64,000 bases of DNA, from the NCBI RefSeq assembly GCF_045037415.1, contig NZ_CP173438.1; one strand, 5' to 3'. The stretch's first letter is position 1, and each line of letters starts with the position of its first letter. Positions 6,015 through 9,000 of the stretch are shown here, piece after piece. Source of the DNA: Escherichia coli (GTDB lineage Bacteria; Pseudomonadota; Gammaproteobacteria; Enterobacterales; Enterobacteriaceae). A program made the position numbers.

Positions 6015-9000
6015 TGATTTTCCGTTGAAATGCGATGCTGTGCTGGTTTGTAGGCCTGATAAGACGCGCCAGCGTCGCATCAGGCATCCGCGCATAGCCG
6101 CCGGATGCGGCGTGAACGCCTTATCCGGCCTACCAAACCGTGCTAATTCAATACATTGCAGGTGCCATGTAGGTCTGATAAGACGCATCCGGCATCGCAT
6201 CATTTCTTCTTCAATTGCGTCACCACCAATTGGTGGCGCGAATTGTAAAACTTACGATAGGTTAAATAGCAGGCAATAATGGTCGACAAGCTGGCGGTTG
6301 AGAGCAGCATAAAGGTCACCATAATCTGATATTTAATCGCCTTCACCGGATCAATCCCGGCAAATATCAGCCCGGACATCATTCCTGGTAAACTCACTAA
6401 GCCTACCGTTTTTGCTGAATCGACCGTCGGAATTAAAGCCGCGCGAATACTGTCGCGAATCAATATCGCTGAAGCCTGTTTCGGCGTCGCGCCAAGACTC
6501 AGTTTCTCCTGAATCTGTTGCTGTTCGCTAATGACCCGTTGCCCTAAATTGTTGTAACACAACCCCACCGCTACCATGGCGTTACCGGCTATCATCCCGG
6601 CGATAGGGATCACCTGCATCGGGATAAATTCAATCGACCCAGAGAGGATCAGTACCGCCAGGGTAATTCCCGCCCCGACCGTAATGGCAATAAACGATGA
6701 GATAAAAGCTTTAGCAATATATTTACTGCGTTTTTGCGCGTTCCACGCCGCATTAAAGCAGATAAATAACACCATCAATAATGTCAGGCTGGCATCATCC
6801 ACGCTGAAAATATACTTCAGCACATAGCCGACAATAATCAGCTGGATTATCGCGCGCCCGACGCTCCAGAGAATATCTTTCTCCAGCGCCAGTTTTTCTT
6901 TATGGCTAATTAAGATTGCCACCACCACCAGCATTAATGCCAGTGCTAATGATTCGTTAGTAATATTATGCGAGTTCATAGCGTGCTTCCTGCATTTCTC
7001 CAGCATGCGGTTGCAGTGTAATCACTTTATCCGCATGATTAATTTCGTCTTTATCGTGTGTCACCCACAGCACAGCAATATTTTGCTCGCGTACATAACG
7101 GTGGATCATCTCATTAACGTTATGTTTATTACTTTCATCCAGCGCACTGGTGATTTCGTCGAGCAATAAAACCTTCGGCATAAATTGCAGGTTACGAATC
7201 AATGAGATGCGTTGTTTTTCACCACCAGATAGCTCGGCGATATTCTTCGTCAAAATGCTGTCCGGTAAAGCGAAGCGTTCAAGAAAATCGAGAAAAATGG
7301 CCGGGTCAGGCTGCTGGTTACGGATCTGCCAGGGAAAAATCAGGTTATCGTATACCGTATCGCCAAACAGCGTCGGCGTCTGGGCGCAGTAAGAGACTTG
7401 CTGACGGTAGATTTCTGGCTTTAGTGTGCTGACATCCTCACCTTCAAACAGTAACGTTCCGCTGGTTGGGCTGATCAATGAAGCAACTATTTTTAGCAGT
7501 GTACTTTTGCCACAACCAGAAGGACCGGTAATTAACTTAAATTCGCCAGCACGCAGCGAAAAATTGATGTTATTAAGAATCTTCGTATCACCCGCCAGAT
7601 ATCCTACGTTTTGTAGCTGAAGCAAAGGACTATTTTCCTGCATCGCTGTTCCCTTTTTCTGATTTTTACTAAAAACAGTTTATCCTTCGCAGGAATAAGG
7701 GGGAACTCTCTTTCAGTAATCAGGTATAATTTGTTTAATCAAGCAGCAATTTTGCTGATTATGGACGGTACAACAGGAGGTTTTTCCGATGCTTATCTTT
7801 ATCCCGATTCTCATTTTTGTCGCGCTGGTCATTGTCGGCGCGGGCGTCAAAATCGTGCCGCAGGGCTATCAATGGACGGTAGAACGCTTTGGTCGCTATA
7901 CCAAAACGTTACAGCCAGGTCTAAGCCTGGTGGTGCCGTTTATGGATCGCATTGGTCGCAAGATCAATATGATGGAGCAAGTGCTCGACATCCCTTCCCA
8001 GGAAGTTATCTCGAAAGATAACGCCAACGTTACCATCGACGCTGTGTGCTTTATTCAGGTGATTGACGCGCCGCGCGCGGCTTATGAAGTCAGCAATCTG
8101 GAGCTGGCGATCATCAACCTGACCATGACTAACATCCGTACCGTGCTGGGTTCAATGGAACTTGATGAAATGCTCTCTCAGCGCGACAGCATTAACTCGC
8201 GTCTGCTGCATATTGTCGATGAGGCCACCAACCCGTGGGGGATTAAAGTCACCCGTATCGAAATTCGTGATGTGCGCCCGCCCGCAGAGCTTATCTCTTC
8301 AATGAACGCGCAGATGAAAGCGGAACGTACCAAACGCGCTTACATCCTTGAAGCGGAAGGGATCCGTCAGGCGGAAATCCTCAAAGCCGAAGGTGAAAAA
8401 CAGTCACAAATCCTGAAAGCGGAAGGCGAACGTCAGTCGGCGTTTTTACAGGCTGAAGCGCGTGAACGTTCCGCTGAAGCAGAAGCCCGCGCCACCAAAA
8501 TGGTGTCTGAAGCCATCGCCTCCGGTGATATTCAGGCGGTGAACTACTTCGTCGCACAGAAATACACCGAAGCGTTACAGCAGATCGGTTCGTCCAGTAA
8601 CAGCAAAGTGGTGATGATGCCATTAGAGGCCAGCAGCCTGATGGGGTCGATTGCCGGGATTGCTGAGCTGGTGAAAGACAGCGCCAACAAACGGACTCAG
8701 CCATGATGGAGTTAATGGTCGTTCATCCACATATTTTCTGGCTAAGTCTCGGCGGTTTGCTGCTGGCAGCCGAGATGTTGGGCGGCAATGGTTATCTGTT
8801 GTGGAGCGGCGTGGCAGCGGTGATTACCGGTCTGGTGGTCTGGTTGCTGCCGCTGGGTTGGGAGTGGCAAGGGGTAATGTTTGCCGTCCTGACGCTGCTC
8901 GCCGCCTGGCTGTGGTGGAAATGGTTGTCGCGGCGGGTGCGCGAACAAAAGCACAGCGACAGTCATTTAAACCAGCGCGGGCAGCAGTTGATTGGCCGAC

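What the first reader, a model, noticed from the sequence alone, without database searches (positions are those of the whole stretch)
6048..6199. Expanded REP/BIME cluster between cnoX and fetB
About three REP units fill a roughly 180-bp convergent spacer that I recall as shorter in K-12. REP copy number is a known source of strain-level polymorphism, so this is mainly a strain marker.
Basis: partly seen in the sequence, partly recalled or inferred. Interest (0 to 1): 0.15.

Follow-up and report, generated by a model that had tools for sequence, protein, structure and literature searches.

The report
REP/BIME cluster between cnoX and fetB
The 182-bp gap between the converging genes cnoX and fetB holds an ordinary E. 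coli repeat cluster (two intact REP hairpins plus one decayed one) that K-12 lacks, and sister species carry much longer versions at the same spot, so it is probably an old, shrunken array rather than a new expansion.

Summary
The cnoX-fetB spacer (6018-6199) is 182 bp, against 62 bp in K-12. It holds a perfect Z2 REP (6050-6085, inverted), a 14-nt S linker, a perfect Y REP (6100-6133), a 35-nt BIME-1-type L linker with an IHF-type core, and a third, decayed Z2 unit (6169-6193) that stops 6 nt short of the fetB stop codon. By the published scheme this is an atypical BIME.

The long allele is in 675 of 5,426 complete E. coli genomes (12%). These include ST131/B2 strains, and an ST93 strain carries a 179-bp variant on a different flank haplotype. 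That makes it a lineage-level two-allele polymorphism, not a strain-private one.

"Expanded" is probably the wrong direction. E. albertii, E. whittamii and two other non-coli Escherichia lineages carry Z2-Y arrays at the same left junction (2 to 23 REPs, up to 1,385 bp). The K-12 spacer is built from BIME-like pieces, so it looks like a collapsed derivative, though the route is not reconstructed.

The likely role is generic: a structured 3' end for both converging mRNAs, plus IHF and gyrase sites. Copy-number variation of BIMEs at a locus is already published. Low interest.

The parts
5163..6017 (+). cnoX (ybbN, chaperedoxin) coding sequence. Its 3' end faces the repeat cluster.
   Evidence: ORF. 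Identical DNA in RefSeq records is annotated as cnoX.
6018..6199 (.). The whole convergent cnoX-fetB spacer, 182 bp (62 bp in K-12).
6030..6040 (+). Left junction motif ATGCGATGCTG. Every Escherichia allele has it, and it resembles the head of a forward Z2 REP. It can pair with GCATCGCAT at 6192-6200, so the BIME sits in the loop of an outer hairpin.
   Evidence: Sequence comparison. The outer stem appears in the minimum-free-energy folds and in the K-12 hairpin.
6050..6085 (-). REP1: an intact Z2-type REP (GCCTGATGCGACGCTGGCGCGTCTTATCAGGCCTAC on the - strand).
   Evidence: Zero-mismatch regex hit. Hairpin of -21.4 / -21.9 kcal/mol. Inverted repeat I3.
6086..6099 (.). Short S linker (ATCCGCGCATAGCC) between the Z2 and Y units, as in BIME-2.
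   Evidence: The second BIME of the window (24262-24345) and all the sister-species arrays have the same 14-nt spacing (15 nt in two units of L093).
6100..6133 (+). REP2: an intact Y-type REP (GCCGGATGCGGCGTGAACGCCTTATCCGGCCTAC).
   Evidence: Zero-mismatch regex hit. Hairpin of -21.6 / -21.9 kcal/mol. Inverted repeat I4.
6053..6130 (-). Y-S-Z2 unit that matches Rfam RF02564 (naRNA4). This is the generic BIME-2 unit.
   Evidence: 83.6 bits against a gathering score of 59.5. The other BIME in the window (24265-24342) scores 81.1 bits.
6134..6168 (+). Long L-type linker (CAAACCGTGCTAATTCAATACATTGCAGGTGCCAT). Its core AATTCAATACATTGCAG (6145-6161) is the IHF-type motif of BIME-1.
   Evidence: It closely matches, gap-free and at the same length, the L linker of the K-12 rlmC-artJ BIME-1 (Y-L-Z1), and the 15-nt core AATTCAATACATTGC is identical. 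The 45-nt query finds a median of 5 places per genome. [quoted passage not shown] ATTCAATACATTG matches 8 of the 9 specified positions of WATCAANNNNTTR (my reading of the sequence).
6169..6193 (-). REP3: a decayed terminal Z2-type unit (GTAGGTCTGATAAGACGCATCCGGC). It lacks 11 nt of the intact terminal Z2 of sister species. ATCGCA (6194-6199) and the fetB stop codon follow it.
   Evidence: Direct repeats D1 and D2 with REP1. It fails the full REP regex. Comparison with the terminal Z2 of L089 and L092. Weak hairpin of -9.8 / -5.4 kcal/mol.
6184..6202 (.). Right-end block CGCATCCGGCATCGCATCA. It is identical in the long and K-12 alleles and includes the fetB stop codon (TCA, i.e. TGA on the - strand).
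   Evidence: Citrobacter species carry a related CCGGCATCACA|TCA at the same place.
6200..6979 (-). fetB (ybbM, permease of the iron-export ABC transporter) coding sequence. In the mRNA, the weak REP3 hairpin starts at its stop codon.
   Evidence: ORF. RefSeq annotation of identical DNA. Fold.

Best explanation
The spacer holds an atypical BIME, a small cluster of REP palindromes, in the order Z2(inverted) - S linker - Y - L linker - decayed Z2(inverted).

It is one of two common alleles of the cnoX-fetB spacer in E. coli. The other is the 62-bp K-12 form.

The cluster is most likely what remains of an old tandem array of about 119-bp [Z2-S-Y-linker] units at this site. That array still exists in expanded form (up to 23 REPs) in other Escherichia species. 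On this reading the K-12 form is a further collapse of a window-like allele, and the window is not a recent expansion of K-12.

Inferred function:
- In RNA, the two strong REP hairpins give both converging transcripts (cnoX from the left, fetAB from the right) a structured 3' end. Such ends block 3'-to-5' exonucleases and attenuate read-through into the opposite gene.
- In DNA, the L linker offers an IHF site and the Z2-S-Y unit offers a gyrase/HU-type site between two converging transcription units.

Copy number changes by recombination or slippage between the near-identical units, or by cleavage and rejoining by TnpA-REP. The variation is probably close to neutral.
For: Shown here:
- Two perfect REPs of types Z2 and Y in alternating orientation, with the canonical 14-nt S spacing. 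There were no such hits in 30 shuffles.
- A hit to Rfam naRNA4, the Y-l-Z2 unit, above the gathering score.
- An L linker that closely matches a bona fide K-12 BIME-1 linker and is dispersed at about 5 places per genome.
- Z2+Y with an L linker is the published definition of an atypical BIME, and copy number at a locus is reported to vary between strains (PMC3333891).
- Allele census: 675 of 5,426 genomes carry the long form. The spread listings showed only spans of 551, 548 and 431 bp, apart from one truncated match.

Evidence on polarity:
- E. albertii (579 bp, 11 REPs), the MOD1-EC7003 lineage (312 bp with 5 REPs; 1,385 bp with 23 REPs; TRF period 119 x 11.3 copies at 96% match), E. whittamii and strain SCPM-O-B-8794 (144 bp each) all share the left junction CCGTTGA(A/G)ATGCGATGCTG. 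Where the far end of the array was assembled, it ends next to ...ATCGCA + fetB stop.
- Their flanks are 3.4-5.5% diverged from E. coli.
- Citrobacter and other genera also keep REPs in this spacer, including an inverted REP whose end CCGGCATCACA abuts the fetB stop.
- The K-12 spacer shares ATGCGATGCTG and the 19-nt right end with the long allele. Its remaining 24 nt resemble the S-linker/Y-head of the E. albertii and SCPM arrays (only 1 of 300 shuffles scored as well against each).
- The long allele sits on two different E. coli flank haplotypes, ST131-like and ST93.

Evidence on function:
- No intrinsic terminator is found in the spacer, so the REP hairpins are the only strong 3' structures there.
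- The roles of REPs in mRNA stabilisation, termination, and IHF/gyrase/Pol I binding come from PMC3333891 and PMC12306157.
Against: The polarity is inferred by parsimony from only four outgroup lineages. E. fergusonii, E. marmotae and E. ruysiae were not recovered by name, and no tree-based reconstruction was run.

I could not derive the K-12 allele from the window allele in one step. It needs a 143-bp loss plus a 24-bp gain or rearrangement, and against the window sequence itself the junctions show neither microhomology nor the C^T cleavage motif of TnpA-REP. A 4-nt CGCA microhomology appears only if the ancestor had the left flank seen in SCPM.

The similarity of the K-12 24-mer to S linkers is modest. 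It is 1 in 300 against two arrays and not significant against the window's own linker.

The short allele is also in Escherichia sp. E1V33, whose fetB-side flank is about 5% diverged. Both alleles may therefore be old.

Nothing about function was measured. IHF, gyrase and HU binding and 3'-end formation are all inferred from family membership.
Confidence: 0.7

Rival explanations
1. One reading: the K-12-like 62-bp spacer is the ancestral state, and this lineage gained REPs recently by insertion or amplification of a BIME into the pre-existing hairpin.
For: The long allele reads as the K-12 hairpin (ATGCGATGCTG | CGCATCCGGCATCGCA) with 143 bp inserted exactly in its loop. The short form is the majority, about 87% of genomes. 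It also occurs in Escherichia sp. E1V33. The GCCGGAT...ATCCGGC palindrome 6 nt from the fetB stop resembles the terminal REP of Citrobacter youngae. TnpA-REP can recombine and amplify BIMEs in vitro (PMC3333891).
Against: Four diverged Escherichia lineages have the array with the same left junction and without K-12's 24-nt block. This rival therefore needs the insertion plus the 24-nt loss to predate E. coli anyway, or to have spread across species. The window copy is short and decayed rather than freshly amplified: TRF finds no tandem repeat and REP3 lacks 11 nt. The long allele lies on two different flank haplotypes.
Confidence: 0.2
2. The long spacer was imported into ST131-like and ST93-like E. 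coli by homologous recombination from a non-coli Escherichia lineage that carries L-linker arrays (MOD1-EC7003-like).
For: The window's first unit is most similar to that lineage. It has the same TTTTCCGTTGAAATGCGATGCTGTGC.GGTTTGTAGGCCTGATAAGACGCGCCAGCGTCGCATCAGGCATC and the same L-type linker. The distribution in E. coli is patchy: B2 ST131 carries it, but B2 CFT073 does not. A contig that mixes MOD1-like and K-12-like sequence at this locus exists (L096), although it may be an assembly chimera.
Against: The flanks are ordinary B2 E. coli right up to the spacer. Over the 450-600 nt nearest the spacer, CFT073 differs from the window by at most 2 bases per 150 nt on the cnoX side and by none on the fetB side. 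The right end CGCATCCGGC is shared with K-12 and not with the MOD1 lineage, which has GCATCAGGC. The S linker also differs (ATCCGCGCATAGCC against ATCGTCATATAACC).
Confidence: 0.07
3. The Z2-S-Y unit is a functional small-RNA gene of the naRNA4 type. Its transcript would work with HU to bridge cruciform DNA and condense the nucleoid, so the extra copy would change chromosome organisation in this lineage.
For: Rfam RF02564 hits at 83.6 bits against a gathering score of 59.5. Qian et al. (PMC4550694) showed that naRNA4 from REP325 plus HU condenses DNA, and that many REPs are transcribed. As part of the fetAB 3' UTR, this unit would be transcribed in the matching (-) orientation.
Against: The Rfam model is simply a BIME-2 unit. 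The window's other BIME scores almost the same (81.1 bits), and by recollection E. coli has many such units. The published phenotype is tied to the six-unit REP325 locus. There is no promoter evidence and no expression data here. About 87% of E. coli lack this copy.
Confidence: 0.08

Closest known systems
Atypical BIME (a chimera of BIME-1 and BIME-2 parts) of E. coli, as defined by Bachellier/Gilson and summarised by Ton-Hoang et al. 2012 (PMC3333891)
   Same: It has z2 and y REPs in alternating orientation with a short S linker (BIME-2 parts) plus a long L linker with the IHF-type core (a BIME-1 part). It is extragenic and lies between convergent genes. Copy number differs between strains and species.
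   Different: The window has only one full unit plus a decayed terminal z2, whereas atypical BIMEs are described as usually multi-copy. The multi-copy state at this locus is seen only in sister species.
BIME-1 / RIP element, for example the K-12 rlmC-artJ spacer (Y - L - Z1)
   Same: A Y REP followed by an L linker of the same length, with an identical 15-nt core AATTCAATACATTGC, followed by an inverted Z-type REP.
   Different: The Z partner here is z2-like (GATAAGACGC) and truncated, not z1. An extra Z2-S sits upstream.
REP325 / naRNA4 (Rfam RF02564; Qian et al. 2015, PMC4550694)
   Same: The same 77-nt Y-linker-Z2 unit. It scores above Rfam's gathering threshold.
   Different: REP325 is a six-unit array between yjdM and yjdN with demonstrated HU binding and a nucleoid phenotype. 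None of that was tested here, and the hit is generic to BIME-2 units.
REPs within 15 nt of a stop codon that stall ribosomes and lower translation (Liang, Rudd and Deutscher 2015, as summarised in PMC12306157)
   Same: REP3 lies 6 nt from the fetB stop codon, and its predicted RNA hairpin starts at the stop codon itself. In sister species an intact Z2 sits 6 nt from the stop. In K-12 a -30 kcal/mol hairpin starts 4 nt after it.
   Different: In the window the stop-proximal unit is decayed and weak (-9.8 kcal/mol). The strong hairpins lie 66 nt or more downstream, outside the reported effective distance.

Membership tests
REP (palindromic unit) elements of E. coli | An imperfect palindrome of 30-40 nt with internal stem mismatches | tested here: met
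   REP1 (36 nt) and REP2 (34 nt) match the consensus with no mismatches and fold at about -21.5 kcal/mol with the internal bulge. REP3 meets this only in part (25 nt, -9.8 kcal/mol).
REP (palindromic unit) elements of E. coli | A conserved GTAG/CTAC tetranucleotide at the foot of the palindrome | tested here: met
   GTAGG at 6050 and 6169 (inverted units) and CCTAC at 6129-6133 (forward unit).
REP (palindromic unit) elements of E. coli | Extragenic, highly repeated and dispersed in the genome | tested here: met
   It lies between two stop codons. The 551-bp query gave a median of 38 places per genome, capped at 40 pieces per record. There is a second BIME in the window and 9 REPs in 50 kb of K-12.
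BIME-2 | [quoted passage not shown] | tested here: met
   6050-6085 (z2, -), a 14-nt linker, 6100-6133 (y, +). The geometry is the same as 24262-24345 and all the sister-species arrays.
BIME-2 | Occurs as multiple tandem copies, flanked by s, l or r motifs | tested here: not met
   TRF finds no tandem repeat in the window. There is only one full unit, and it is followed by an L linker, which is a BIME-1 part. Tandem copies at this locus exist only in other species.
BIME-1 | A y REP and a z1 REP separated by the conserved long L linker, present as a single copy | tested here: not met
   The y REP and L linker are present, but the partner is z2-like and truncated, not z1, and an extra z2 lies upstream.
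BIME-1 | The L linker binds IHF | not testable with these tools
   Only sequence evidence is available. The core ATTCAATACATTG matches 8 of the 9 specified positions of WATCAANNNNTTR and is identical to the core of a K-12 BIME-1.
Atypical BIME | A chimeric combination of y, z1, z2, L, S, s, l and r parts (PMC3333891) | tested here: met
   z2 + S + y + L + (z2) as read. The definition is quoted.
naRNA4 (Rfam RF02564) | Sequence and structure match at or above the curated gathering score | tested here: met
   83.6 bits against 59.5, full model positions 1-77.
naRNA4 (Rfam RF02564) | A transcribed RNA that binds HU and condenses the nucleoid | not testable with these tools
   No expression or binding data are available. 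The hit is generic to BIME-2 units (the second hit).
Intrinsic (Rho-independent) terminator | A GC-rich hairpin followed directly by a T/U run | tested here: not met
   No terminator-like sites on either strand in 5900-6350.
Translation-modulating REP (15 nt or less from the stop codon) | A stable REP hairpin that begins within 15 nt of the upstream gene's stop codon | tested here: inconclusive
   The distance criterion is met for fetB: the REP3 hairpin starts at the UGA. But REP3 is decayed and weak, and on the cnoX side the first REP lies 32 nt from the stop.

The most novel reading that the evidence does not exclude
The two spacer alleles could be a long-lived, possibly selected, polymorphism that sets FetB (iron exporter) output. 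The K-12 form places a perfect -30 kcal/mol hairpin 4 nt after the fetB stop codon, which would stall ribosomes strongly. The ST131-type form has replaced that hairpin with a decayed REP and moved the strong hairpins 66 nt or more away, which would relieve the stalling. On this reading the K-12 palindrome would also be a natural footprint of BIME-array collapse.
Probability: 0.08. Interest if true: 0.4.

Novelty: already known. Interest (0 to 1): 0.12.

Why it matters
It matters little beyond bookkeeping. REP/BIME copy-number variation at a locus is textbook E. coli biology, and nothing here departs from it.

There are three modest points of value.
- The spacer is a simple length marker (182 against 62 bp) that separates ST131-type and some other lineages from K-12-like E. 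coli.
- Across the genus this locus is a hypervariable BIME array, ranging from no canonical REPs to 23. That makes it a convenient natural series for studying how BIME arrays grow, decay and collapse.
- The two alleles put very different structures next to the fetB stop codon, so an allele swap would be a clean test of the published idea that REPs near a stop codon modulate translation.

Tried and rejected
- A fixed-gap IUPAC pattern for REPs found nothing because my spacing was wrong. I replaced it with a fuzzy regex.
- I first took the absence of a repeat feature in the MG1655 spacer as evidence that K-12 has no REP there. I dropped this. This copy of the MG1655 annotation lists no REP features at all, even where 9 REPs are present.
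- The MAFFT alignment of the long and short alleles scatters the K-12 bases across the gap and is misleading in the interior. I read the relationship from exact shared blocks instead.
- I tried to fetch a phylogroup D reference (UMN026, NC_011751.1) to map the allele onto phylogroups, but it is not in the collection. I took lineage information from papers on named strains instead.
- The Liang et al. 2015 paper (PMC4427526) is not held. Its claims are cited only as summarised in PMC12306157.
- TRF on the window finds no tandem repeat, so the element cannot be called a tandem array in this strain.
- L096, a Logan contig with a MOD1-like cnoX and the K-12 spacer, looked like evidence for the short allele outside E. 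coli. The last 160 nt or so of its cnoX, its spacer and its fetB are K-12-like, so it is a chimera or recombinant, and I set it aside.
- I looked for microhomology or the TnpA-REP C^T cleavage motif at the borders of the 143-bp difference. Neither is present against the window sequence.
- An intrinsic terminator in the spacer is ruled out.
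Full report
WHAT IS THERE

The window encodes cnoX (ybbN, annotated 5163-6017, + strand) and, converging on it, fetB (6200-6979, - strand) followed by fetA. 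The spacer between the two stop codons is 6018-6199, 182 bp.

A fuzzy REP pattern finds two zero-mismatch REPs in the spacer:
- 6050-6085 on the - strand: GCCTGATGCGACGCTGGCGCGTCTTATCAGGCCTAC, the 36-nt Z2 type.
- 6100-6133 on the + strand: GCCGGATGCGGCGTGAACGCCTTATCCGGCCTAC, the 34-nt Y type.

The whole 64-kb window has only four such hits. The other pair is at 24262-24345. Thirty Markov shuffles gave none.

A third unit begins at 6169 (GTAGGTCTGATAAGACGCATCCGGC). It repeats the first 19 nt of REP1 at 95% identity but fails the full pattern. REP1 and REP2 fold at about -21.5 kcal/mol in either sense. REP3 folds at only -9.8 / -5.4 kcal/mol.

The whole spacer folds at -85.7 kcal/mol (z = -5.95) on the + strand and -79.2 kcal/mol (z = -4.74) on the - strand. 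The refinement is that it is two intact REPs plus one decayed unit.

ANATOMY AND CLASS

REP1 and REP2 are separated by a 14-nt linker (ATCCGCGCATAGCC). The window's other BIME and every array I recovered from sister species have the same spacing, apart from two units of L093 with a 15-nt linker.

Between REP2 and REP3 lies a 35-nt linker, CAAACCGTGCTAATTCAATACATTGCAGGTGCCAT. A 45-nt query spanning it finds a median of 5 places per E. coli genome. The best K-12 place is the rlmC-artJ spacer, a textbook Y - L - Z1 element. Its linker, AAAAGCGTGCAAATTCAATACATTGCATGGGCCA, has the same length, aligns without gaps to the first 34 nt of the window linker, and shares the identical 15-nt core AATTCAATACATTGC.

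Ton-Hoang et al. (PMC3333891) give the definitions:
- BIME-1 is z1 + y with a conserved long L linker that frequently carries an IHF site, and is single copy.
- BIME-2 is z2 + y with a short S linker, in tandem copies.
- Atypical BIMEs are chimeras of these parts.

The window element, z2 - S - y - L - (z2, decayed), is therefore an atypical BIME.

Rfam agrees in its own terms. RF02564 (naRNA4, the 77-nt Y-l-Z2 unit of REP325) hits 6053-6130 at 83.6 bits against a gathering score of 59.5. It hits the window's other BIME at 81.1 bits, so the match is generic to BIME-2 units. The L linker nearly reaches RF02751 ES036 (35.2 bits against 37.6). No intrinsic terminator is found in the spacer on either strand.

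COMPARISON WITH K-12 AND THE E. COLI POPULATION

In K-12 (C600 and MG1655) the spacer is 62 bp: TATTCCGTTGATCGGCACATGAACCACAACGCCGGATGCGATGCTGCGCATCCGGCATCGCA. It contains no canonical REP. It does contain a perfect palindrome, GCCGGATGCG-ATGCTG-CGCATCCGGC. In the fetB sense this folds at -30 kcal/mol and starts 4 nt after the stop codon.

Against 5,426 complete E. coli genomes, the window's 551-bp segment is covered in full in 675 genomes (12.4%). Apart from one plasmid match to a REP alone, all other listed genomes span 431 bp, exactly 120 bp less. These include C600, CFT073, EDL933 and H10407. The reciprocal search with the K-12 form gives the same two classes, plus a 548-bp variant and a handful of disrupted loci.

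Known carriers of the long allele:
- SK1144, phylogroup B2 (PMC12366417).
- Ecol_743, an ST131 strain (PMC5608912).
- 'O25b:H4-ST131 strain 751', matched on the 45-nt linker query.
- LWY24, which is ST93 (PMC8025056), with a 179-bp variant. Its flanks differ by about 2% from both the window and K-12.

CFT073 is also B2 and its flanks are 99.3-99.5% identical to the window, yet it has the short form.

The polymorphism is thus real, essentially biallelic, common, and shared by unrelated lineages. It marks lineages, not individual strains.

I could not list all 675 genomes or type them. Rare alleles below about 2% would have escaped the sampled listings.

WHICH STATE IS OLDER

A scan of species-representative genomes with CnoX, followed by exact-protein look-ups, gave the same spacer from other Escherichia lineages. 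All of those below share the left junction CCGTTGA(A/G)ATGCGATGCTG followed by an inverted Z2, the 14-nt S linker and a forward Y:
- E. albertii TW07627: 579 bp, (Z2-S-Y-17-nt linker) x5 plus a final Z2, 11 REPs in total.
- The MOD1-EC7003 lineage: one metagenome contig with 312 bp (5 REPs) and GCA_022423985.1 with 1,385 bp (23 REPs). The units carry L-type linkers. TRF gives period 119, 11.3 copies and 96% matches.
- E. whittamii and strain SCPM-O-B-8794: 144 bp each, one Z2-Y pair.

The complete multi-unit arrays end with an intact inverted Z2, then ATCGCA, then the fetB stop. These lineages are 3.4-5.5% diverged from E. coli in the flanking genes.

Farther out, Citrobacter, Enterobacter, Kluyvera and other genera fill the same spacer with their own REP types or with other repeats. 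Several Citrobacter species keep an inverted REP whose end, CCGGCATCACA, abuts the fetB stop.

Against this background the window's REP3 is the terminal inverted unit with 11 nt missing:
- Window: GACGC|ATCCGGCATCGCA
- Sister species: GACGCGCCAGCGTCGCATCAGGCATCGCA

The K-12 spacer shares three things with long alleles:
- the left motif ATGCGATGCTG;
- the 19-nt right end CGCATCCGGCATCGCATCA, identical to the window;
- a remaining 24 nt (TCGGCACATGAACCACAACGCCGG) that aligns to the S linker plus Y head (ATC.GCACATAACCGCCGGA) of the E. albertii and SCPM arrays better than all but 1 of 300 shuffles. It does not do so against the window's own linker.

By parsimony, I read the BIME-occupied state as older than E. 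coli. On this reading the window allele is a short, partly decayed survivor of an array, and the K-12 form is a further collapse. 'Expanded' holds only relative to K-12.

This is an inference, not a demonstration.
- I could not derive K-12 from the window in one step. It needs a 143-bp loss and a 24-bp gain or rearrangement.
- Against the window sequence, the borders show neither microhomology nor the C^T motif of TnpA-REP cleavage. A CGCA microhomology appears only if the ancestor had the left flank seen in SCPM.
- The short form also occurs in Escherichia sp. E1V33, whose fetB side is about 5% diverged.
- A contig that seemed to show the short form in the MOD1 lineage (L096) is a chimera or recombinant, and I discarded it.

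HOW IT MOST LIKELY WORKS

Shown: the spacer has no intrinsic terminator, and it has two strong hairpins that form in either transcript.

Inferred from what is established for the family (PMC3333891, PMC12306157, PMC4550694):
- In RNA, the REP hairpins give the cnoX and fetAB messages a structured 3' end. Such ends block 3'-to-5' exonucleases and damp read-through into the converging gene.
- In DNA, the L linker is a candidate IHF site, and the Z2-S-Y unit is a candidate gyrase/HU site between converging transcription units.
- Copy number changes through recombination or slippage between the 119-120-bp units, or through TnpA-REP cleavage and rejoining, which has been shown in vitro for other BIMEs.

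One allele-specific point is worth stating. REPs within 15 nt of a stop codon are reported to stall ribosomes and lower translation (Liang et al. 2015, as summarised in PMC12306157). Sister species place an intact Z2 6 nt from the fetB stop. K-12 places a -30 kcal/mol perfect hairpin 4 nt from it. The window places only the weak REP3 there, and its strong hairpins start 66 nt or more downstream. If the published rule applies, the alleles could differ in FetB output. This is untested, and I give it a low probability.

RIVALS

The long allele does read as the K-12 hairpin with an insert in its loop, and the short form is the majority. However, four diverged lineages share the same junction, and the window copy is decayed.
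- Import from a MOD1-like Escherichia (0.07). The first unit and the linker type are similar. However, the flanks are ordinary B2 E. coli up to the spacer, and the right end is E. coli-specific.
- A functional naRNA4-type RNA gene (0.08). It passes the Rfam score, but so does any BIME-2 unit.

NOVELTY AND VERDICT

The element belongs to a thoroughly described class, and variation in BIME number at a locus between strains is already published (PMC3333891).

In the same window the reverse case also occurs. K-12 has a BIME-1 between mscK and ybaM and a five-REP BIME-2 between ybaQ and copA, and this strain lacks both. This shows how routine such differences are.

The finding is correct as an observation, ordinary in kind, and probably mislabelled in direction. 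Interest is low (0.12).

Noticed in passing
window 24262-24345: A second BIME-2 unit (inverted Z2, 14-nt linker, Y) lies in the spacer that corresponds to K-12 gsk-ybaL. K-12 has it too (501444-501527). It hits Rfam naRNA4 at 81.1 bits.
   Followed up: partly
window 35559-35617 and 15554-15575: REP polymorphisms in the opposite direction. K-12 has a Y-L-Z1 BIME-1 between mscK and ybaM, and a five-REP BIME-2 array between ybaQ and copA. Both are absent from this strain, whose spacers are 58 and 21 bp at those sites.
   Followed up: partly
window 27811-27865: The adk-hemH spacer is about 100 bp shorter than in K-12. The K-12 version carries a CCCCTC...GGGGAGAGGG-type palindromic repeat that this strain lacks.
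   Followed up: no
window 15951-16253 (- strand): A 100-aa HigB-like toxin ORF (Pfam PF05015, E = 2.7e-32) lies next to ybaQ. K-12 has only 71 bp at this place, which suggests an intact toxin-antitoxin pair here that K-12 has lost.
   Followed up: partly
window 17887-19187: About 1.36 kb between ybaK and ushA is absent from K-12. It holds two ORFs: 266 aa with DUF6896 (PF21837, E = 6e-14) and 167 aa with no Pfam match.
   Followed up: partly
window 9156-9986: About 830 bp between ybbJ and cueR is absent from K-12. It has ORFs of 110 and 170 aa; the 170-aa ORF has no Pfam match and the 110-aa ORF was not scanned.
   Followed up: partly
L093 2356-3740 (GCA_022423985.1) and L089 2356-2934 (E. albertii TW07627): Very long BIME arrays fill the same cnoX-fetB spacer: 23 REPs in 1,385 bp (period 119, 96% matches) and 11 REPs in 579 bp. 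Gene callers place spurious 50-aa ORFs inside the E. albertii array, and draft assemblies of both lineages break inside these arrays.
   Followed up: yes
L048 and L058 (other Enterobacteriaceae), spacer after position 2855: In some genera the same convergent spacer is filled by a different repeat family (CCCTCTCCC...GGGAGAGGG palindromes, up to 233 bp) instead of REPs. The site attracts repeats whatever their type.
   Followed up: no
L096 (Logan SRR23290584 contig): The contig has MOD1-EC7003-like sequence for most of cnoX. For the last 160 nt or so of cnoX, the 62-bp spacer and fetB it is K-12-identical. It is either an assembly chimera from a mixed sample or a real inter-lineage recombinant at this locus.
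   Followed up: partly
L004 (CFT073) 1731-2511: fetB is annotated as a frameshifted pseudogene in CFT073.
   Followed up: no
fetB stop codon, window 6200-6202: The fetB stop codon is TGA in the window, K-12 and CFT073. It is TAA in LWY24, E1V33, E. whittamii, E. albertii and the MOD1 lineage. This is a single-base difference inside the conserved GCATCGCAT(C/T)A block, which also forms the outer hairpin arm.
   Followed up: no
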